64,000 bases of DNA from a bacterium (GTDB taxonomy: Bacteria; Patescibacteriota; Minisyncoccia; JAUYLV01), in the NCBI GenBank assembly GCA_030649025.1, contig JAUSGO010000004.1:6824-70823 (forward strand). Direction: 5' to 3'. Below the pieces are notes generated by a model, which searched no databases, had not been told where the DNA came from, and worked only from the letters and a program-made list of their open reading frames with translations. Position 1 is the first letter of the stretch, and each line of letters opens with the position of its first letter. Below, piece by piece: positions 280 to 51,971 of the stretch. Made by a program: the position numbers and the translations under genes.

Positions 280-519
280 TCAGACGGGGTCGTATCCTCC
301 TTGGGAGAACGGGTTACAGCGCATTATTCGCCAAGCGCTTCGCGCTATCCCTTTCAAAAAACCCTTTGTTTGTATCGCCTGCTTAGTGTACGTCGAGCAC
401 GACGGATAATATTTACACGACCCGCTCAAAAATGGCAACGAGATGATTCCGTGGTCCGGCGAGACGGTCTTTTGGTATAACTCAATAAGATTTGTTGCGG
501 TTTTTGAGAGTGTTCGCAT
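280..519 (-). CDS. yidD: membrane protein insertion efficiency factor YidD
   Basis: 79-aa ORF with a YidD-like C-terminal ...[13 protein letters not shown]. Overlaps the rnpA 3' end, as in the canonical rpmH-rnpA-yidD-yidC order. Confidence 0.8.
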
Positions 520-832
520 GATAAGTAAGCTCCTTTACTAAATCAAAAAAATCTGCGTCCTGGATGTTTTTTGAAGGAAAGATAAGCAGATCATATCCGA
601 AGAGGGCGGGCATACATTTCTTGACAACCTCCCTTGTTCTTCGTTTTATAGAGTTTCTTGTAACCGCCTTTTTTGCTTCTTTGGCGCTCACTATAACGGC
701 TATGCGAGGCGGCGCTATCCTTGTTGTTCTTGAAGCCTTCAGGCGGAAAAATCTTCCTCGGGTCTGCGTTCCTTTTTCCAACACAAAAAGAACGTCCTGT
801 CTCTTTTTCAACCTGTTAATGCCGGAGAGCAT
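482..832 (-). CDS. rnpA: RNase P protein component
   Basis: Internal Met of the 180-aa ORF: [21 protein letters not shown]...[27 protein letters not shown], the RnpA signature. 117 aa. Confidence 0.85.
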
Positions 833-849
833 AGAAGGCGGTTTCAGGA

Positions 850-987
850 CTACACAACTAACTTCTTTCTGTGTTTCCGGCGTCGTCTTTGCACCACCCG
901 TCTTCCGCCGGTACGTCGCATGCGTTTTAAAAACCCGTGTACACGACGCCTTCTGCGCTTCTTTGGTTTGTAGGTAAGGGCTAGCAT
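850..987 (-). CDS. rpmH: 50S ribosomal protein L34
   Basis: Not in the ORF track (45 aa). Reverse translation [45 protein letters not shown] matches the L34 consensus; 17 nt upstream of rnpA. Confidence 0.9.
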
Positions 988-1176
988 TCTTGTAAAGAAT
1001 ACATTCTTCGTGTATGCTCGTCAATAGTTAATTTTCATCCACAACTTCTGCACAGATGGGGATTATTTTTTAAGTTTTTTTCTGCGTGCTATACTACCTT
1101 CCGTTGTGTGAATTTATTTTCATTGTTATTGCCTGCGTTCTTCGCATGCATTATAAGATAATTTTTTCTCCTGCAT
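988..1176. promoter_or_regulatory. rpmH-dnaA divergent intergenic region; dnaA promoter with a DnaA-box-like TCATCCACA (about 1049-1057)
   Basis: Position between divergent rpmH and dnaA. One 8/9 match to TTATCCACA. Confidence 0.35.
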
Positions 1177-2571
1177 ATGACCAATGAAGATCTCTGGCAG
1201 ACCGTGTTGGGCGAAATGGAACTTACGCTTTCCAGGGCAAATTTCGTTACCTGGTTTAAAAACACTTCTATTTCTGCTCACGAAAGCGGCGCCGTGATCG
1301 TCAGCGTCCCGAACGGGTTCACACAAGAGTGGTTGGAGAATAAATATAACAAATTTATCCTTAAATCGTTGCGCAAAACATCTCCGGACGTTAAAGAGGT
1401 GAAGTATGTCATAGGCTCCTACAGTCCGCCTCCGCGCCGAGAACACCTTGATGTCTCCCCCGAGACTCAAATGGACAAGGAATCTTTTGCCTACGACGAC
1501 CAGCTTAGCGTCGGTGAACTTGAACAGCCGGTTCTGGTAAATAAAGCGAACCTCAATACCCGCTATACCTTTTCTTCGTTTATCGTTGGTTCTTCAAACG
1601 AATTGGCAAACGCAGCTTCCCTCGCCGTTGCAGGAAGCCCCGGTACGGTATACAACCCCCTACTTATCTATGGGGGAGTTGGGCTTGGAAAAACGCATCT
1701 TATGCAGGCGGTCGGAAACGAAATACTCGCAAAGCGCCCCGGAGCGCAAGTTAAGTACATAGCCGCGGAACGTTTTACGACGGAGCTTATCAATTCGCTC
1801 CAAGATAAGCGTATTGAAGAATTTAAACAGCGCTATCGGGCTTGCGATGTGCTTATTATCGACGATATCCAATTTCTTTCCGGAAAAGAAAAGACTCAGG
1901 AGGAGTTTTTTCATACCTTTAATCATCTTTTTGCCAACAATAAACAGATCATCCTTTCTTCCGACCGCCCTCCAAAAGCCATAGGAGGCATCGAGGAGCG
2001 ACTACGGAGCCGTTTTGAGGGCGGCATGGTCGCCGATGTTGGCATACCAGAGCTTGAGATGCGTGTTGCGATTCTAAAGAAAAAATCAGAAGAAAGAAAT
2101 ATTGCGCTTCCCGATGACGTGCTTATGTATATTTCTACGAAAATCCAGAAAAATATTAGAGAGCTCGAGGGAGCGCTTAATAAAATAGCCGCTTACGTAC
2201 AACACACCAAAACAGTTCCTTCTCTTAAAATAGCAGAGAAAATCCTCTCAAGCCTTATAAATCAGCCAAAACGGATGATTTTGGTACGGGATATTATGAA
2301 GGCTGTGTCGGATTTCTACGATATCGGCCTCGATGAAATTGTAAACCAGTGCCGGAGAAAAGAGGTGGTAAGACCGCGACAAATAACCATGTATCTTCTG
2401 CGCGAAGAGCTGCAAAGCTCTTATCCGGCCATTGGAGCCAAGCTCGGCAACAGAGATCATACGACCGTTATGTACGGCTGCGAAAAAATTACAAAAGAAC
2501 TGGAAAACAACCTTACGCTACAGGAAGAGGTCCGGCTCATTCGGGAGCGCCTGTATGCAAACATGGGATAG
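1177..2571 (+). CDS. dnaA: chromosomal replication initiator DnaA
   Basis: Walker A GVGLGKTHLMQAVGNE, Walker B/sensor LIIDDIQFLSGKEKTQEEFFHTFNHL, and a C-terminal DNA-binding domain. Confidence 0.97.
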   Translation: MTNEDLWQTVLGEMELTLSRANFVTWFKNTSISAHESGAVIVSVPNGFTQEWLENKYNKFILKSLRKTSPDVKEVKYVIGSYSPPPRREHLDVSPETQMDKESFAYDDQLSVGELEQPVLVNKANLNTRYTFSSFIVGSSNELANAASLAVAGSPGTVYNPLLIYGGVGLGKTHLMQAVGNEILAKRPGAQVKYIAAERFTTELINSLQDKRIEEFKQRYRACDVLIIDDIQFLSGKEKTQEEFFHTFNHLFANNKQIILSSDRPPKAIGGIEERLRSRFEGGMVADVGIPELEMRVAILKKKSEERNIALPDDVLMYISTKIQKNIRELEGALNKIAAYVQHTKTVPSLKIAEKILSSLINQPKRMILVRDIMKAVSDFYDIGLDEIVNQCRRKEVVRPRQITMYLLREELQSSYPAIGAKLGNRDHTTVMYGCEKITKELENNLTLQEEVRLIRERLYANMG

Positions 2572-2791
2572 AGTGTGTACAAAAAAAATAATTTTATTTT
2601 TCTCTTTTTTTGTTCACTGAAATATTCCGCTTATAGCCAGGCCCTCCACACCTTTATAAAATTCTTACAGTATATTTTTTGTATAAACAGCGATAAAAAA
2701 CTATTTTCCCCTTTTCCACAGCGCATAATAATAATCATTATAAATATTATATATAAAGAAATCTTATTATATATAATACCGGTGTATAACT
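2572..2791. promoter_or_regulatory. predicted oriC / DNA-unwinding element in the dnaA-dnaN spacer
   Basis: 220-nt spacer that is strongly AT-rich (ataataataatcattataaatattatatataaagaaatcttattatatataat), with a DnaA-box-like TTTTCCACA at about 2717-2725. Classical location for oriC. Confidence 0.45.
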
Positions 2792-3889
2792 ATGAAATTT
2801 TCCTGCATCAGATCATATTTTCTAAACGCGGCAAGCTCCGTTGAAAGAATAATAGAAAAAAATAGCACGCTTCCCATTCTTCAAAATATTTTTATTAAAG
2901 TTGAAAAAGGGAAGACCACACTTTCCACGACAAACCTTGAAATAGGCATACATGCTTCATTCCAATCAAAAGCGGACGAGGAAGGATCTTTTACCGTTCC
3001 TGCAAAAACCCTATTGAATTTTCTTATGTATGTGGATACAGAAAAGATAACAGTCCACACAAAAGGAACAAATCTTATTATAAATGCCGGCTCTCATAAG
3101 GCGGACATTAAAGGACTTGACGCAACTAATTTTCCTATCATTCCTGAAATAACCGAAAGCTTTTCTACTTCTCTGCCTGCAGAAGAATTTTTTTCAGCTC
3201 TTTCTTCCCTAACTTTTCTTTCTTCAATGGGAGACCTGCGGCCGGAGCTTGCGGGAGTTTTTTGCAGTTTTGAAAAAAACCAACTGCGCATGGCTGCAAC
3301 AGACAGTTTTCGTCTCGGAGAATTTATTTTAAAAATCCCTACCCCAAAGAAAGAAACGACCTGTATTATACCTACGCGAACCGTAAACGAAATAATCCGC
3401 TTATTCACCGGGGCCGAAGCCGTTACCTTAAAACTAAGTGCCAATCAAATTCTCATCAAAACACAGGAAAAAGAGCTCATCTCCCGCCTCATCGAAGAAA
3501 AATACCCCGATTATACGGCAGTTATTCCGACATCAAGCACAACCAGAACATATCTTAAAAGGGAAGAGTTTATGCAGGCCTTGCGCGCCGCAAGCGTTTT
3601 TAGCGGAAAGACGCGTGAGGTAAAAATTAATATTTTTCCGGAAGAAAAAAAATATATTATAGAAAGCCGCAATGCCGACATAGGAGAACACAAAAGCGAA
3701 ATTTCTTGCGACGGAAACGGAAAAAACGTGACGGTATCGGTTAACTATCAGTATTTCCTTGATGCCCTCGGGAAGATTTCCGACGAAATGATTTCTTTTG
3801 AGAACAACAACGAAACAGACCCCATTCTTCTTAAGGGGCTTGCGGGCGCCGGACCAAGATATATTATTATGCCGTTGCGCTCGTATTAG
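2792..3889 (+). CDS. dnaN: DNA polymerase III beta sliding clamp
   Basis: 365 aa immediately after dnaA. N-terminus MKFSCIRSYFLNAASSVERIIEKNSTLPILQNIFIKVEKG is typical of DnaN. Confidence 0.95.
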   Translation: MKFSCIRSYFLNAASSVERIIEKNSTLPILQNIFIKVEKGKTTLSTTNLEIGIHASFQSKADEEGSFTVPAKTLLNFLMYVDTEKITVHTKGTNLIINAGSHKADIKGLDATNFPIIPEITESFSTSLPAEEFFSALSSLTFLSSMGDLRPELAGVFCSFEKNQLRMAATDSFRLGEFILKIPTPKKETTCIIPTRTVNEIIRLFTGAEAVTLKLSANQILIKTQEKELISRLIEEKYPDYTAVIPTSSTTRTYLKREEFMQALRAASVFSGKTREVKINIFPEEKKYIIESRNADIGEHKSEISCDGNGKNVTVSVNYQYFLDALGKISDEMISFENNNETDPILLKGLAGAGPRYIIMPLRSY

Positions 3890-6807: not shown

Positions 6808-7416
6808 TTAATACATCACGTCTTCTTCAGCGCGTTTGTAGTCATGAAGCTCCTTTTCCGAAAACCAATACGCAAGCTCTTTCTCCGCCTCTTCCGGAGT
6901 TCCGGATGCGTGTGCAAGGTTTCGTACCGTACGATGGTCTCGGTTGGCGCAAGCGGCGGAATCCGTTGAAAAATCACCGCGAATTGTTCCCATCTCGGCC
7001 AGGGCCGGCATCGTATGCCCGCAAAGCTTACGGATGCCCTCCACCACATGCACCCCCTTGATGGCCACCTTCATAATGGGACCGGAAAGCATGAATTCCA
7101 CGAGCCACGACCTTACCATTCGGCCGATTTCCAGATCGTCATCCGTTCCCATTTCTGCCTTTACATCAATGCCATATTTCTCATAAGTTGCTTTCGTTTT
7201 CCCCGCCAAACTTTTCGCATACGCGTCGCTATTATCATAATGCCCTTCTATTTGTTCCCGCGTCGCCCACACCATTGCAAGGCCGATGATCTTAAAGCCT
7301 CGCATCTCAATACGGCGAATAATCTCTCCGGTTAGCCCGCGCTTTACGCCGTCGGGCTTAACAAGCAGCAGCGTGCGTTCTTCTCTGGGGTGTCGAGGAT
7401 GGACAAGCTCGCTCAT
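6808..7416 (-). CDS. ndk: nucleoside diphosphate kinase with an internal insertion
   Basis: LLLVKPDGVKRGLTGEIIRRIEMRGFKI ... HASGTPEEAEKELAYWF. 202 aa is longer than the usual ~140 aa. Confidence 0.85.
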   Translation of the reverse strand: MSELVHPRHPREERTLLLVKPDGVKRGLTGEIIRRIEMRGFKIIGLAMVWATREQIEGHYDNSDAYAKSLAGKTKATYEKYGIDVKAEMGTDDDLEIGRMVRSWLVEFMLSGPIMKVAIKGVHVVEGIRKLCGHTMPALAEMGTIRGDFSTDSAACANRDHRTVRNLAHASGTPEEAEKELAYWFSEKELHDYKRAEEDVMY

Positions 7417-10581: not shown

Positions 10582-11001
10582 TTATTTTTTATCCTGCGGC
10601 CGTTTCACGCCATATTTGCTTCGTTCTTGTTTTCTATTTTCCACTCCTCCCGCATCCAAAACTCCCCGCACAATGTGATAGCGCACGCCGGGAAGATCTT
10701 TGACGCGTCCACCACGAATAACCACCACCGAATGTTCCTGTAAGTTATGCCCGATACCGGGAATGTAGGCCGTAACTTCCATGCCGTTCGTAAGCCGCAC
10801 GCGGGCGATTTTGCGTAGGGCGGAATTCGGTTTTTTAGGGGTCATGGTTTTTACACTGATGCACACGCCGCGCTTGAAGGGCGAACTATAAAGTTTCGGC
10901 CTGTTTTTAAGCACGTTAAACCCGCGGGTCAGCACGGGGCTTTTTGATTTTACTTTTTGCGACTTTCGGGGACTCTTAATAAGCTGGTGGATTGTAGGCA
11001 T
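10582..11001 (-). CDS. rpsL: 30S ribosomal protein S12
   Basis: Start at [13 protein letters not shown] (internal Met of the track ORF), then ...[19 protein letters not shown]. Confidence 0.95.
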
Positions 11002-11188
11002 GATGTTAGAAAAGATAGCACACGACCAATCTAAAGACAAGCGAAAGCGTAACAAGGTCTCTTCGCGCTGTCAAATAAAAACTTTTGAATAAAAAACAAT
11101 CCTTGACAATCGTGGCTAATTTGTTAGTCTAATTTCTTCCGGTTCATTGAAATTTAAGAACAAGTTCACAAAGAAGGGGGCGCTTATT

Positions 11189-15795: not shown

Positions 15796-16401
15796 ATGTC
15801 CGGTGACGCTTCCCAAAAAGAAAAAGAGCTTTACAGCAAATTCAAAAATGCCTATGAAGCACATGAAAAACGTGTATGGGAAATTGAAAAAATCATGGCC
15901 AGGCTTAGCCAGGCAAAAAAAGAAGGGAGAAAAGATCCAGAAAGAGAACGGCAGCGCGAGGAAGCTTCTGCTCTTGTCCAAAAAGAGCTTGACGTCATCC
16001 AGCGGCTTGTTTTAGAGGCAAAAGAAGCGCTGGGTTCGCCAAAAAGCTTTCTCGGCGAGTCGGTTGATGCGAACGGGCTTACCTCGACAATTAGAAAACT
16101 CATTGAGCGGGAAGCGATTGAAAAGGCTGACCTCGCGTTTCCCTACACATTTCGAACAGCTCTTCTTAACGCCTTTCTGGAACGCGAAAAGCAAACAAGG
16201 GCATCGATTTATAAAAAACATGTTCGTAAGGGGTTCGGAAGTTCCGTTGAGAGTCTTATAGAGGAAGAACAGCAGAAAAACGAAGCCTATAGAAAACAAC
16301 TCATGGATAAGTATCCGGACCTTCTATCCCCTAGTGATGTCGAGCTATTCAGCATGGCCTTTAAGCGCCGCATGGCTCGACATGGCGAAGAGGCCGTTTA
16401 A
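15796..16401 (+). CDS. hypothetical coiled-coil protein
   Basis: 201-aa ORF, charged and helical; no family recognised. Confidence 0.45.
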   Translation: MSGDASQKEKELYSKFKNAYEAHEKRVWEIEKIMARLSQAKKEGRKDPERERQREEASALVQKELDVIQRLVLEAKEALGSPKSFLGESVDANGLTSTIRKLIEREAIEKADLAFPYTFRTALLNAFLEREKQTRASIYKKHVRKGFGSSVESLIEEEQQKNEAYRKQLMDKYPDLLSPSDVELFSMAFKRRMARHGEEAV

Positions 16402-16414
16402 GTCGTAGATTATT

Positions 16415-16487
16415 GGGCGCATAGCTCAGCGATTAGAGCATCCGCCTTACACGCGGAGGGTCCTAGGTTTAAATCCTAGTGCGCCCA
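16415..16487 (+). tRNA. tRNA-Val (anticodon TAC)
   Basis: Manual fold: acceptor GGGCGCA/TGCGCCC, D-stem GCTC/GAGC, anticodon stem TCCGC/GCGGA with loop cTTACac, T-stem CCTAG/CTAGG. T-loop TTTAAAT is non-canonical. Confidence 0.75.
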
Positions 16488-16541
16488 CAATAAATTGTTC
16501 CATGTGAAACGTTAGTGTGTTTTTCTATGAAACAGGGCCAC

Positions 16542-16559
16542 ATGTTTCATGGGAAACAT
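16542..16559. promoter_or_regulatory. palindromic operator-like site ATGTTTC-atgg-GAAACAT immediately upstream of the yraN start
   Basis: Perfect inverted repeat. The same 16-mer form TGTTTCATGRGAAACA recurs at 16986-17001. Confidence 0.5.
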
Positions 16560-16568
16560 TTTTTAATC

Positions 16569-16976
16569 ATGGATAGCCGTACGGAAATAGGCAGATCAGG
16601 AGAAGGTGCCGCATCAAGTTTTCTTATCAACAATAATTACCGCATCATCCACAGAAACTTCCACCTAGGAAGAATGGGGGAAATAGACATAATAGCAGAA
16701 AAAAGTGTTGGATTTTGGCCATTTTTAGAGAAAAGTCTAGTTTTTGTAGAAGTAAAAACGCTTGTCATAGGAAGTTTTAAGAAGGAATATGATCCAGAAA
16801 TGCGCGTAGACGGCAAAAAACAAGAAAGACTTATAAGATTGGCCAGTCTATACCTCTCTAAAAACAAGATTAAGGCGGACACGCCGTGGCAAATTGATGT
16901 AATTGCTGTTGAAATAGAAAGTTCCACGGGAAACATAAAAGAGATTCGTCATCATGAAAACGCTGTTCATTTATAG
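16569..16976 (+). CDS. yraN: YraN-family (UPF0102) endonuclease
   Basis: MDSRTEIGRSGEGAASSFLINNNYRIIHRNFHLGRMGEIDIIAEK...FVEVKT...PWQIDVIAVE. The start was chosen at the internal Met; the track ORF begins at 16515. Confidence 0.7.
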   Translation: MDSRTEIGRSGEGAASSFLINNNYRIIHRNFHLGRMGEIDIIAEKSVGFWPFLEKSLVFVEVKTLVIGSFKKEYDPEMRVDGKKQERLIRLASLYLSKNKIKADTPWQIDVIAVEIESSTGNIKEIRHHENAVHL

Positions 16977-16985
16977 AACTCTTCG

Positions 16986-17001
16986 TGTTTCATGAGAAAC
17001 A
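16986..17001. promoter_or_regulatory. second copy of the TGTTTC-N4-GAAACA palindrome, just downstream of yraN
   Basis: TGTTTCATGAGAAACA, perfect inverted repeat. Confidence 0.5.
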
Positions 17002-17009
17002 TTTTTATA

Positions 17010-17043
17010 ATTCCACGTGAAACATTAATGTTTCACGTGGAAT
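17010..17043. repeat. 34-bp perfect palindrome ATTCCACGTGAAACATT|AATGTTTCACGTGGAAT
   Basis: Exact self-complementarity. It carries the same GAAACA/TGTTTC half-sites in the opposite arrangement. Confidence 0.8.
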
Positions 17044-17103
17044 AGATGTTTGCGAACAAATTACTTATTTGATAGCATGATGCTGAAGTAAAATTTAATA
17101 CTT

Positions 17104-17174
17104 GCGGGTATCGTATACCGGTATTATGCCACCTTGCCAAGGTGGAGAAACGGGTTCAATTCCCGTTACCCGCT
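17104..17174 (+). tRNA. tRNA-Gly (anticodon GCC), no encoded CCA
   Basis: Manual fold: acceptor GCGGGTA/TACCCGC, anticodon stem CCACC/GGTGG with loop ttGCCaa, T-stem ACGGG/CCCGT with loop TTCAATT. D-stem is weak (3 pairs) but the D-loop contains GG. Confidence 0.7.
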
Positions 17175-17292
17175 CACCAAAATAAAACTGCCCCTTGTGA
17201 GTAGTTTTATTTTGGTCGAACTTGGGGAATTAAAGGGAGGTCCGGTGGACTTCCCAGGTTTTTCTGAGCCGGAGGAACGAGGAGAGGAAAAG

Positions 17293-17310
17293 AATTCCCG
17301 TTACCTGCTT
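17293..17310. repeat. displaced copy of the tRNA-Gly 3' end (AATTCCCGTTACCtgc vs AATTCCCGTTACCcgc)
   Basis: 13-14-nt exact match to the T-loop/acceptor 3' half of the tRNA-Gly at 17104, about 120 nt downstream of it. Confidence 0.6.
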
Positions 17311-50996: not shown

Positions 50997-51488
50997 ATGG
51001 CCAGACAACAACATCGGCAAGAAAAACAAAAAGGCGAGTTTGAACAAAAAACACTCGAAGTCAGCCGCGTGACACGCGTCGTTGAAGGCGGAAAGCGTTT
51101 TTCTTTTCGCGCTGCGCTGGTTATCGGCGATCTCAGGGGGCGCGTAGCTTTGGGTGTCGCAAAGGGCGCCGACGTCTCGCTTGCCATTGAGAAGGCGGCA
51201 TTCCGCGCGAAGAAAGATCTTTTTTCCGTTCCGCTCACGAAGGAGGGGTCTATTTCTCATGAGGTGCGTGCGAAATACGGCAGCGCCAAGGTCTTGTTAA
51301 AGCCGGCGGCAGAGGGCCGCGGTATTGTGGCTGGTGGCGCCATGCGCACGGTATGCGCGCTTTCGGGAATTCGACATGTAACCGGGAAAATACTTAATTC
51401 TACAAACAAGATAAACATTGCGCGGGCCACCATTGCGGCGCTCAGACAACTTAGACCGTCAAAAGAGCAAACAACAAAAAACAAATAA
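50997..51488 (+). CDS. rpsE: 30S ribosomal protein S5
   Basis: ...VTRVVEGGKRFSFRAALVIGDLRGRVALGVAKGADV. Confidence 0.95.
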   Translation: MARQQHRQEKQKGEFEQKTLEVSRVTRVVEGGKRFSFRAALVIGDLRGRVALGVAKGADVSLAIEKAAFRAKKDLFSVPLTKEGSISHEVRAKYGSAKVLLKPAAEGRGIVAGGAMRTVCALSGIRHVTGKILNSTNKINIARATIAALRQLRPSKEQTTKNK

Positions 51489-51503
51489 CAGGCTTCAGCC
51501 GCT

Positions 51504-51531
51504 TGCTATTTGCCATCTGCTGTTTGCTATC
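51504..51531 (+). repeat. 4x heptamer tandem array TGCTATT/TGCCATC/TGCTGTT/TGCTATC ending 5 nt (CGTTA) before the rplO ATG
   Basis: Direct reading; same family as the array before tuf. There is no L30 gene between rpsE and rplO. Confidence 0.8.
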
Positions 51532-51536
51532 CGTTA

Positions 51537-51971
51537 ATGCAGCTGCATAATCTTTCGGGAAAGAAAAACAAAAAAAAGCGAGTTGGTCGCGGCGGGAAAC
51601 GCGGTACATATTCGGGTCGTGGCGGCAAGGGGCAGACCGCGCGAGCGGGGCATCGGATACGGCCGGCAATTCGAGATTATCTCAAGCAGATTCCCAAGCG
51701 TCGCGGGCGGCACAAACATGGTTTTATAAGCGTTCAACGCAAGCCGGCAATAGTGTCCCTTAGAGATATCGAGAAGGTTTTCACGGTCGGCGAAACGGTG
51801 AGTCCAAAGACTCTTACGCAAAAGAGCCTGGTATTTCCTTTTGGTTCGATAATGCCGAAAGTCAAAATTCTTGACGGAGGAAAGCTTGGCAAAAGCCTTG
51901 TTGTGCGAGGTTGTGCGGTGTCGGCAAGCGCAAGAAAGGCCATAGAGGCAGTTGGCGGCAAAGTTCTCTAG
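51537..51971 (+). CDS. rplO: 50S ribosomal protein L15
   Basis: MQLHNLSGKKNKKKRVGRGGKRG; internal Met of the track ORF. Confidence 0.93.
   Translation: MQLHNLSGKKNKKKRVGRGGKRGTYSGRGGKGQTARAGHRIRPAIRDYLKQIPKRRGRHKHGFISVQRKPAIVSLRDIEKVFTVGETVSPKTLTQKSLVFPFGSIMPKVKILDGGKLGKSLVVRGCAVSASARKAIEAVGGKVL

What the first reader, a model, noticed from the sequence alone, without database searches (positions are those of the whole stretch)
16500..17060. Cluster of GAAACA/TGTTTC palindromes, including a 34-bp perfect palindrome, bracketing yraN between two tRNA genes
The 16-bp palindrome TGTTTCATGRGAAACA occurs immediately upstream of the yraN start (16543-16558) and again just after its stop (16986-17001). 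A 34-bp perfect palindrome ATTCCACGTGAAACATTAATGTTTCACGTGGAAT follows at 17010-17043, carrying the same half-sites in the opposite arrangement. Further half-sites sit at about 16503, 16528 and 17046.

Such dense, exact dyads are typical of operators for a dimeric regulator, of recombination or resolution sites, or of cruciform-forming origin-like sequences. YraN itself is a predicted PD-(D/E)xK-fold endonuclease and could act on them.
Basis: seen in the sequence. Interest (0 to 1): 0.6.

Follow-up and report, generated by a model that had tools for sequence, protein, structure and literature searches.

The report
Chromosome centromere (parS) site cluster
The palindromes around yraN are a tight cluster of parS sites, the well-known bacterial "centromere" sequence where the ParB protein loads to segregate the chromosome, lying 15 kb from the replication-origin genes of an uncultivated Parcubacteria (CPR) bacterium; this is an ordinary kind of element in an unstudied lineage.

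Summary
Both TGTTTCATGRGAAACA dyads and the 34-bp perfect palindrome are at the stated coordinates.

All of them are variants of one 16-bp motif, the near-universal chromosomal parS consensus TGTTNCACGTGAAACA. Six full sites with 1-2 mismatches lie in 16496-17044, one of them inside yraN. One conserved half-site lies between them. The other ~63 kb of the window has no site of that quality.

The window opens with rnpA, dnaA and dnaN, so the cluster is origin-proximal, as parS sites normally are. SecY places the organism in Patescibacteria/Parcubacteria.

Relatives with YraN 52-83% identical keep sites at the same relative positions: 24-31 nt before the start, 56 nt before the stop, and 4-11 nt after the stop. 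Spacers and neighbouring genes diverge. Half-site positions 3, 4 and 6 are invariant in 58 of 58 half-sites.

The perfect 34-bp palindrome is not conserved; only its two component sites are.

The most likely mechanism is loading of ParB-CTP clamps to build the partition complex. This is inferred: no parB gene could be examined.

YraN is reported to be a non-specific ssDNA nuclease of natural transformation. A yraN-parS link outside this clade is not significant (P = 0.07).

Verdict: new member of a known kind, low to moderate interest.

The parts
16496..16511 (.). parS-like site S1, TGTTCCATGTGAAACG (2 mismatches), 8 nt after tRNA-Val
   Evidence: It is conserved as TGTTCCATGTGAAACA (1 mismatch) in the 78% relative L082, while the flanking spacer diverges.
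16527..16534 (.). Conserved half-site ATGAAACA, a degenerate site between S1 and S2
   Evidence: Read directly in the sequence. The half-site is conserved in L082. The corresponding position in L085 holds a full site, TGTTTCCCATGAAACA.
16543..16558 (.). parS-like site S2, TGTTTCATGGGAAACA (2 mismatches), 26 nt (site start) upstream of the yraN ATG at 16569
   Evidence: The identical sequence sits at the identical offset (start-26) in L082 and L085. Equivalent sites lie at start-24 to start-31 in L087, L088 and L094, and at start-45 in L086.
16920..16935 (.). parS-like site S3 inside yraN, AGTTCCACGGGAAACA, read in frame as S-S-T-G-N-I
   Evidence: It lies at exactly stop-56 in the window, L085, L086 and L087. 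The codons ACG GGA AAC are identical in all four genes. In this reading frame the consensus core CACGTGA would create a TGA stop codon.
16986..17001 (.). parS-like site S4, TGTTTCATGAGAAACA (2 mismatches), 9 nt after the yraN stop codon
   Evidence: Equivalent sites lie at stop+4 to stop+11 in L085, L087, L088 and L094.
17009..17024 (.). parS-like site S5, AATTCCACGTGAAACA, the left half of the 34-bp palindrome
   Evidence: L085 has TATTCCACGTGAAACA at the same relative position (stop+37 against stop+33).
17029..17044 (.). parS-like site S6, TGTTTCACGTGGAATA (1 mismatch on the minus strand), the right half of the 34-bp palindrome
   Evidence: L085 has TGTTTCACGTGTAAAG at 21 bp centre-to-centre from its S5 equivalent; the spacing in the window is 20 bp.
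17010..17043 (.). 34-bp perfect palindrome, made of S5 and S6 in mirror orientation around TTAA
   Evidence: pair I4; DNA hairpin of -22.5 kcal/mol for the 81-nt stretch. The perfect symmetry is not conserved in L085, and the pair is absent in L086, L087, L088 and L094. An independent assembly of the same sample, L084, breaks inside it.
16415..16488 (+). tRNA-Val(TAC), the left boundary of the cluster
16569..16976 (+). yraN (UPF0102, PD-(D/E)xK nuclease), embedded in the cluster. A gene caller started it at 16542, inside S2.
   Evidence: Pfam PF02021, E = 2.5e-20; 144-aa gene call; clade alignment.
17104..17175 (+). tRNA-Gly(GCC), the right boundary of the cluster
1177..3889 (+). dnaA (1177-2571) and dnaN (2792-3889), with rnpA at 482-1024 on the minus strand. 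These are replication-origin marker genes about 13-15 kb from the cluster.

Best explanation
**What it is.** The palindromes are a cluster of parS sites, the chromosomal centromere of an uncultivated Parcubacteria-group (CPR/Patescibacteria) bacterium.

**How it most likely works.**
- Each 16-bp dyad is a nucleation site for one ParB (Spo0J) dimer. Each monomer's helix-turn-helix reads one TGTTTCAC-type half-site.
- At parS, ParB binds CTP, closes into a clamp and slides onto flanking DNA.
- Six or seven loading sites within 550 bp would build a dense ParB partition complex about 15 kb from dnaA.
- ParA, if the genome encodes it, and SMC condensin would use that complex to separate and organise the newly replicated origin regions.

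**Shown here.** The sequence matches parS. The sites are clustered and occur only here in the window. The position is origin-proximal. The sequence is conserved at fixed positions across a clade.

**Inferred.** ParB binding, spreading and the segregation role are inferred from established knowledge of ParABS. No parB gene could be inspected.

**Other points.** yraN and the two tRNA genes are passengers inside the centromere. The 34-bp palindrome is simply two adjacent sites in mirror orientation.
For: 1. **Motif identity.** All six sites match TGTTNCACGTGAAACA with 1-2 mismatches, giving 14 strand-matches against 1.67 expected. Twelve of the 14 lie within 550 bp, and no other place in the 64 kb has a match with 2 or fewer mismatches. 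None occurs in the extra 3.6 kb upstream of the window in L001. The review PMC7022226 gives this consensus as the chromosomal parS of most bacteria.
[quoted passage not shown] Clusters of 4-22 sites are documented (PMC7022226 Table 1).
3. **Conservation.** In relatives with YraN 52-83% identical (L082, L085, L086, L087, L088-L095), sites recur at start-24 to start-31, at stop-56 and at stop+4 to stop+11. Several have only 1 mismatch. Spacers, neighbouring genes and even the flanking tRNA species differ.
4. **Pattern of constraint.** Across 29 clade sites (58 half-sites), positions 3, 4 and 6 are invariant. The stems show no compensatory changes. Only the innermost base is relaxed, 39 C against 19 T. 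This points to recognition of the sequence, not of a hairpin.
5. **parS-type, not NBS-type.** The two positions that distinguish parS from the Noc-binding site are parS-type in 52 of 58 and 48 of 58 half-sites.
6. **Explained mismatch.** The mismatch in the intragenic site follows from the reading frame, because the consensus would create a TGA stop.
Against: - No parA, parB or smc gene is in the 64-kb window or in the 3.6 kb further upstream. ParB motifs were found in none of the clade loci. The presence of the cognate protein in this genome is therefore untested.
- No site in the window is a perfect consensus. Five of the six have 2 mismatches, which in model organisms usually means weaker binding.
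- The whole genome is not available, so 'restricted to the origin region' is shown only for about 68 kb.
- oriC itself was not mapped. DnaA boxes are not clearly enriched anywhere in the window.
Confidence: 0.85

Rival explanations
1. The sites are operators of an unrelated dimeric transcription factor that controls yraN and the tRNA genes, and their resemblance to parS is coincidental.
For: One site always lies 24-31 nt upstream of the yraN start in the clade. Sites bracket the gene on both sides. No sigma-70-like promoter was recognised in 16300-17300, so how this unit is regulated is unknown.
Against: Several independent sites match 14-15 of the 15 specified parS bases. Sites also lie after the stop codon and inside the gene, where an operator makes little sense. 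No regulator gene is adjacent in the window. The position is origin-proximal.
Confidence: 0.04
2. The sites are true ParB sites, but the local function under selection is regulatory. ParB bound at, or spreading from, the sites would silence or time expression of the transformation nuclease YraN. The yraN-parS linkage would then be functional, not historical.
For: The linkage is universal in the clade even where all other neighbours have changed, as in L088-L095. Five more distant loci (L098, L120, L143, L163, L171) also carry parS clusters at or inside yraN. P. aeruginosa ParB bound to intergenic parS3 and parS4 represses the adjacent genes (PMC7022226).
Against: Outside the clade the adjacency is not significant when contig length is taken into account. 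Five loci were observed against 2.7 expected (P = 0.07), and only 1 of 97 loci of at least 8 kb has it. None of the 80 yraN loci from the species genome collection has it. Sites that are inside the gene or within about 30 bp of it cannot easily be separated by rearrangement, so inheritance alone explains the linkage.
Confidence: 0.07
3. The palindromes act through structure, as hairpin terminators for tRNA-Val and yraN, as cruciforms, or as recombination (Xer/dif-like or resolution) sites.
For: S2 and S4 are each followed by a T-run, and the scan flags a terminator-like site at 16521-16556. The 34-bp palindrome folds strongly as single-stranded DNA (-22.5 kcal/mol for the 81-nt stretch, z = -6.9).
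Against: The T-runs are not conserved: L082 has TAAATC and L085 has TCTCTC after S2. The perfect 34-bp symmetry is not conserved. The stems never covary and are instead invariant in sequence. One site is inside a coding region. There is no recombinase or integrase gene nearby. Rfam finds nothing except the two tRNAs. From established knowledge, dif sites lie near the terminus, not near dnaA.
Confidence: 0.03
4. yraN plus its flanking inverted repeats is a small mobile or selfish cassette that inserts next to tRNA genes.
For: The yraN+sites unit is found in different gene neighbourhoods and beside different tRNA genes: Val and Gly, Pro, Leu, and Ile. A tRNA gene lies within 1 kb of yraN in 13 of 20 loci with parS sites near yraN, against 14 of 152 loci without (these loci are not independent of one another).
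Against: No transposase or integrase is present. YraN is a broadly conserved housekeeping-type gene. The number and position of sites vary, and some are intragenic. The repeats match the universal parS motif, not a lineage-specific terminal repeat. There is only one copy in about 68 kb.
Confidence: 0.01

Closest known systems
Chromosomal parS centromere sites of the ParABS system (Bacillus subtilis Spo0J/ParB sites, consensus TGTTNCACGTGAAACA)
   Same: Both are the same 16-bp palindromic motif and both are origin-proximal. Multiple copies are normal: B. subtilis has 10 sites, 8 of them in the origin domain, and C. glutamicum has 10 of 10 there (PMC7022226). Sites with a few mismatches also belong to known sets.
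   Different: Here six or seven sites are packed into 550 bp, at 20-66 bp spacing, around one small gene and two tRNA genes, instead of being spread over tens of kilobases. None is a perfect consensus. The clade's commonest variant carries a transition at the central CpG (CACATG, equivalent to CATGTG on the other strand). The host is a CPR bacterium, for which I found no ParB/parS study in the searchable literature.
Tight chromosomal parS clusters: Pseudomonas aeruginosa parS1-4, Caulobacter crescentus (5 sites), Myxococcus xanthus (22), Streptomyces coelicolor (21)
   Same: All are clusters of several parS sites close to oriC that together nucleate one ParB complex. In P. aeruginosa, intergenic sites can repress the adjacent genes.
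   Different: From my own knowledge, not tested here, those clusters are usually linked to the parAB operon or span several kilobases. Here no par gene lies within about 68 kb, and the cluster is an order of magnitude more compact.
Noc-binding sites (NBS, consensus TATTTCCCGGGAAATA) of Firmicutes
   Same: Both are 16-bp dyads recognised by a ParB-family protein. They differ from parS at only two positions per half-site (PMC7383237). Some half-sites here carry one NBS-like base, for example TGTTTCCC and AATTCCAC.
   Different: The discriminating positions are parS-type in 52 of 58 and 48 of 58 half-sites. NBS sites are scattered around the chromosome, not clustered near oriC. Noc is restricted to Firmicutes, and this organism is a Patescibacterium.

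Membership tests
Chromosomal parS (ParB/Spo0J centromere site) | 16-bp inverted repeat matching TGTTNCACGTGAAACA | tested here: met
   Six sites have 1-2 mismatches. Clade relatives have sites with 1 mismatch, and more distant loci have perfect sites. The consensus is taken from PMC7022226.
Chromosomal parS (ParB/Spo0J centromere site) | Located in the origin-proximal part of the chromosome | tested here: met
   rnpA, dnaA and dnaN are at 482-3889, about 13-15 kb from the cluster. oriC itself was not mapped and the genome size is unknown.
Chromosomal parS (ParB/Spo0J centromere site) | Rare or absent elsewhere on the chromosome | tested here: inconclusive
   No site with 2 or fewer mismatches occurs in the remaining ~63 kb of the window or in the 3.6 kb further upstream in L001. 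The rest of the genome is not available.
Chromosomal parS (ParB/Spo0J centromere site) | Sequence conserved by selection in related genomes | tested here: met
   Sites occupy fixed offsets relative to yraN in L082 and L085-L095, while the spacers diverge. Half-site positions 3, 4 and 6 are invariant in 58 of 58 half-sites.
Chromosomal parS (ParB/Spo0J centromere site) | A cognate ParB (ParBc/HTH protein with the GERRxRA motif) is encoded in the same genome | not testable with these tools
   None is in the window or in L001, and no ParB motif is in the clade loci. The other contigs of the MAG cannot be reached, and all homologue searches and collection scans that could have helped were used.
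Chromosomal parS (ParB/Spo0J centromere site) | ParB binds the site and spreads from it (ChIP-seq, EMSA, CTP-dependent clamp loading) | not testable with these tools
   This needs an experiment.
Noc-binding site (NBS) | A at half-site position 2 and C at position 7 (TATTTCCC); scattered distribution around the chromosome; a Firmicute host | tested here: not met
   G at position 2 in 52 of 58 half-sites and A at position 7 in 48 of 58. The sites are clustered. The host is in Patescibacteria. The criteria come from PMC7383237.
Intrinsic (Rho-independent) terminator | G+C-rich hairpin followed by a conserved T-run, with the pairing preserved by covariation | tested here: not met
   The stems are A+T-rich 6-7-mers. 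The T-runs are absent in L082 and L085. There is no covariation. Only one composite hit appeared in the scan.
Dispersed repetitive palindromes (REP/MITE-like elements) | Many copies dispersed through intergenic regions of the genome | tested here: not met
   All copies lie within 550 bp. There are none elsewhere in about 68 kb.
Replication origin (DnaA-box cluster with an unwinding element) | A cluster of TTATCCACA-type boxes | tested here: not met
   The region holds only two boxes with 1 mismatch, both inside yraN (16624 and 16645). Across the window there are 17 against 10.6 expected, with no cluster at this locus.

The most novel reading that the evidence does not exclude
In a branch of the Candidate Phyla Radiation, the chromosomal centromere and the transformation nuclease gene yraN form a functional module. 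ParB loading or spreading would control yraN, or YraN would have acquired a role at the ParB-bound centromere. This would explain why the gene stays wrapped in parS sites while everything around it is reshuffled, and why parS clusters turn up at yraN in several more distant metagenomic lineages (L098, L120, L143, L163, L171).
Probability: 0.08. Interest if true: 0.55.

Novelty: new member of a known kind. Interest (0 to 1): 0.25.

Why it matters
- **Annotation.** It marks the centromere, and by implication the origin region, of an uncultivated Parcubacteria genome. I could find no chromosome-segregation literature for this group.
- **Conservation of ParB recognition.** It shows that the ParB recognition sequence is conserved in CPR bacteria, with a relaxed central dinucleotide.
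- **Worked examples of constraint.** A parS site can live inside a coding region if the frame allows it. The forced G, which avoids a TGA stop, illustrates overlapping constraints on one stretch of DNA.
- **Practical use.** The cluster is a handle for orienting MAG contigs relative to the origin. It also gives a ready-made sequence for ParB-based locus tagging or EMSA once a cognate ParB is cloned.
- **What it is not.** It does not reveal a new kind of system.

Tried and rejected
1. **YraN as the enzyme acting on the dyads.** Rejected. 80 yraN loci from named species (1.22 Mb) have no adjacent sites. YraN is reported to be a non-specific ssDNA endonuclease of transformation.
2. **A general yraN-parS linkage beyond the window's clade.** At first it looked striking: 21 sites in 74 kb near yraN against 11 in 610 kb elsewhere. 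A permutation that respects contig lengths gives 5 loci observed against 2.7 expected (P = 0.07), and only 1 of 97 long loci shows it. I left this as unproven.
3. **Taxonomic placement of the scattered loci that have parS near yraN, using YraN similarity.** Uninformative, because the protein is too short and best named hits are about 40% identical across many phyla.
4. **Looking for parB.** Pfam annotation of 50 window ORFs found none. The contig upstream of dnaA (L001) carries rnpA, yidC, jag, a polysaccharide synthase and a NERD protein, but no parAB. A motif scan (GERRxRA and box I) of all 1.9 Mb held found ParB only in one unrelated Kapaibacterium locus, L013.
5. **Exact-protein look-up of the 135-aa YraN.** It failed because the gene caller used the upstream ATG at 16542. 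One look-up (P0004) returned no DNA.
6. **Synonymous-site test for the intragenic site.** The three codons are identical in four genes, but the base rate is 37%, so this gives about 0.05 on its own and is only supportive.
7. **Terminator, Rfam, DnaA-box and NBS readings.** Tested and rejected.
8. **Literature on ParB or parS in CPR, Patescibacteria or Saccharibacteria.** Nothing relevant was found.

Full report
**1. The observation**

The region was read directly.
- TGTTTC-N4-GAAACA occurs exactly twice in the 64 kb, at 16543-16558 and 16986-17001. The expected number is 0.01.
- The 34-bp perfect palindrome is at 17010-17043 (pair I4).
- tRNA-Val(TAC) is at 16415-16488 and tRNA-Gly(GCC) at 17104-17175.
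- The ORF between them is a UPF0102/YraN protein.

The finding is therefore accurate. It is incomplete in two ways. The 'half-site' near 16503 is part of a full 16-mer at 16496-16511. A further full site lies inside yraN at 16920-16935.

**2. One motif, and it is parS**

All the elements are versions of one 16-bp dyad. Searching the window with TGTTNCACGTGAAACA and up to 3 mismatches gives 14 strand-matches against 1.67 expected, and no shuffle reached 14. Twelve of the matches, representing six sites with 1-2 mismatches, fall in 16496-17044. Nothing else in the window has 2 or fewer mismatches. I first recalled the consensus from memory and then confirmed it. The review PMC7022226 gives TGTTNCACGTGAAACA as the highly conserved chromosomal parS. 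Its Table 1 lists 10 sites in B. subtilis (8 in the origin domain), 10 in C. glutamicum, a cluster of four in P. aeruginosa and 22 in M. xanthus.

The 34-bp palindrome is two such sites, AATTCCACGTGAAACA and TGTTTCACGTGGAATA, set as mirror images 20 bp apart centre to centre.

**3. Context**

Pfam annotation of 50 ORFs shows:
- rnpA (minus strand), dnaA and dnaN at the start of the window (482-3889);
- then a PBP1-type enzyme, ndk, the str operon, a thiolase and an acyl-CoA synthetase;
- then the cluster itself;
- then a Nudix protein, an AddA-like helicase, murJ, nusA, ddl, an ABC exporter, lepA, tuf and the S10/spc ribosomal operons.

[quoted passage not shown] No parA, parB or smc is present in the window. 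None is in the 3.6 kb beyond its left end, seen in a Logan contig of the same sample (L001).

SecY homologues place the organism in Patescibacteria, Parcubacteria group. The nearest named relatives are Candidatus Portnoybacteria and Azambacteria at about 63% identity. The MAG itself is labelled only 'bacterium'. The absence of an L30 gene between S5 and L15 fits a CPR bacterium.

**4. Conservation**

The species-genome collection holds no close YraN; the best hit is 42% identical. Metagenome assemblies, however, hold a graded series of relatives, found through the neighbouring 201-aa protein and through YraN itself.
- In the 78% relative L082, S1, the half-site and S2 are intact while the spacers have diverged.
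- In L085 (79% YraN identity) all six positions are occupied.
- L086 (63%) has three sites, L087 (58%) has five, and L088-L093 (57%) have three each. L094 and L095 (56%) have four each. Many of these have only 1 mismatch.

The offsets are well conserved:
- a site 24-31 nt before the yraN start in every clade locus except L086, where it lies at start-45;
- a site exactly 56 nt before the stop in the window, L085, L086 and L087;
- a site 4-11 nt after the stop in the window, L085, L087, L088 and L094.

In L088-L095 the neighbours are entirely different (an M50 peptidase, a TrmB-type regulator and tRNA-Pro), yet the sites remain.

Over 29 clade sites the half-site is T-G-T-T-T-C-A-(C/T). Positions 3, 4 and 6 are invariant in all 58 half-sites. 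The commonest variant, CACATG (equivalent to CATGTG on the other strand), is a single transition at the central CpG. Invariant stems without covariation point to recognition of the sequence by a protein, not to a hairpin.

**5. What the 34-mer is not**

L085 keeps both component sites (TATTCCACGTGAAACA, then ataat, then TGTTTCACGTGTAAAG) but not the symmetry. L086, L087, L088 and L094 lack the pair. Selection therefore acts on individual 16-mers, not on a long cruciform-forming palindrome. The strong single-strand fold follows from the sequence and adds nothing.

An independent assembly of the same sample breaks inside the palindrome (L084). That is typical assembler behaviour at palindromes. 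L085 shows the two-site architecture with continuous flanks in another sample, so the structure is not an assembly artefact.

**6. The intragenic site**

S3 is read as AGT TCC ACG GGA AAC A, giving S-S-T-G-N-I. In this frame the consensus ...ACG TGA... would be a stop codon. The G that counts as a 'mismatch' is therefore forced by the reading frame.

The peptide (S/C)-F-T-G-N sits in a segment that varies among more distant YraN proteins. Its three central codons are identical in the four genes that carry the site. The base rate of codon identity at identical residues is 37%, so this is supportive but not significant by itself. In L171 a perfect parS lies inside yraN in another reading frame. 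In L143 the same frame uses TGG instead. Both fit the frame argument.

**7. Is YraN involved?**

A bioRxiv study (10.1101/2024.02.06.579203) reports that YraN is a PD-(D/E)xK ssDNA endonuclease that interacts and co-evolves with the ComM helicase. It processes the transformation D-loop and 'shows activity against any ssDNA'. Nothing there links it to dyads.

In 80 yraN loci from named species (1.22 Mb) there are four isolated parS-like sites, none of them near yraN.

In 80 further metagenome loci, however, parS clusters lie at or inside yraN in L098, L120 (nine sites, five perfect), L143, L163 and L171. Their nearest YraN relatives lack such sites. A pooled density comparison suggests enrichment. 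A permutation that keeps each contig's sites and length gives 5 loci observed against 2.7 expected (P = 0.07). Only 1 of 97 loci of at least 8 kb shows adjacency.

I conclude that the linkage is firmly established only within the window's clade. There, sites inside the gene or within about 30 bp of it cannot readily be separated by rearrangement. A wider functional link remains a minority possibility.

**8. Rival readings**

- **Terminators.** The T-runs after S2 and S4 are not conserved.
- **Known RNAs.** Rfam finds only the two tRNAs.
- **Origin.** There is no DnaA-box cluster here.
- **NBS/Noc.** The discriminating bases are parS-type, and Noc is restricted to Firmicutes.
- **Dispersed repeats.** All copies lie within 550 bp.
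- **Mobile cassette.** There is no transposase or integrase, and the repeats equal a universal motif. The frequent tRNA neighbours are noted all the same.

**9. Mechanism**

By analogy with established ParABS biology, ParB dimers nucleate at each dyad. They bind CTP, close into clamps and slide outward, forming the partition complex that ParA and SMC act on. The very dense arrangement, with 20-24 bp spacing inside two sub-clusters, would give a high local loading rate even from sites weakened by mismatches. This step is inferred. ParB could not be looked for in the rest of the genome.

**10. Verdict**

This is a parS centromere cluster in a CPR bacterium, a new member of a well-known kind. It has two small features of interest: its extreme compactness around yraN and two tRNA genes, and a frame-constrained intragenic site. 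Interest is low to moderate.

Noticed in passing
window 16638-16664: Inside yraN, nine consecutive codons (TACCGCATCATCCACAGAAACTTCCAC, Y-R-I-I-H-R-N-F-H) are identical at every base in the window, L085, L086 and L087. The same 27 bases are also present in L082. These YraN proteins are only 58-79% identical, and the base rate of codon identity at identical residues is 37%. The stretch contains a DnaA-box-like TCATCCACA (16645-16653) and a TTCCAC parS-half-like hexamer. It may be a second element under DNA-level constraint.
   Followed up: no
L082 1474-1735 (homologue of window tRNA-Val 16415-16488): In the 78% relative the orthologous tRNA-Val gene is interrupted twice. One insert of about 113 nt sits in the anticodon loop, is closed by a CCCCGCC/GGCGGGG stem, and itself contains a complete, different tRNA-Val(TAC) at 1528-1600. 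A second insert of about 72 nt sits in the T-loop and is closed by TTCCCGA/TCGGGAA. L087 9615-9660 has a remnant resembling a tRNA 3' half. This could be intron-like inserts or tRNA gene replacement in CPR bacteria.
   Followed up: no
window 15796-16401: A 201-aa lysine/glutamate-rich protein with no Pfam match is syntenic with the cluster in the window, L082, L083, L086 and L087. In L086 and L087 a parS site begins at the base immediately after its stop codon. It is found only in this lineage: four clusters among 5.8 billion proteins.
   Followed up: partly
L098, L120, L143, L163, L171 (metagenome loci): More distant yraN loci (34-45% identity) carry clusters of perfect TGTTTCACGTGAAACA sites at or inside yraN. 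L120 has nine sites in 580-1187. L171 has perfect sites inside the gene and at stop+10 and stop+48. Most also have a tRNA gene within about 1 kb. Adjacency to yraN is not significant after allowing for contig length (P = 0.07).
   Followed up: partly
window 17176-17216: A perfect 14-nt inverted repeat, ACCAAAATAAAACT...AGTTTTATTTTGGT, begins at the base after tRNA-Gly (pair I8). It is probably the A+T-rich terminator of the tRNA-Val-yraN-tRNA-Gly unit. A second terminator-like hairpin is at 17235-17255.
   Followed up: no
window 50997-51971: rpsE (S5) is followed after 22 nt by rplO (L15), with no rpmD (L30) gene between them. From my own knowledge, loss of L30 is reported for CPR bacteria, which fits the SecY-based placement.
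   Followed up: no
L084 (Logan contig of the same sample), end at 1959: An independent assembly of the source sample stops inside the 34-bp palindrome. Perfect palindromes of this kind fragment short-read assemblies, which could cause parS clusters to be systematically lost from MAGs.
   Followed up: no
window 10582-11055 and 6808-7416: Ribosomal protein S12 carries an N-terminal extension of about 50 residues; the Pfam match starts at residue 51 of 156. The nucleoside diphosphate kinase ORF matches the NDK model in two separate stretches. The extra residues may partly reflect over-long ORF start calls.
   Followed up: no
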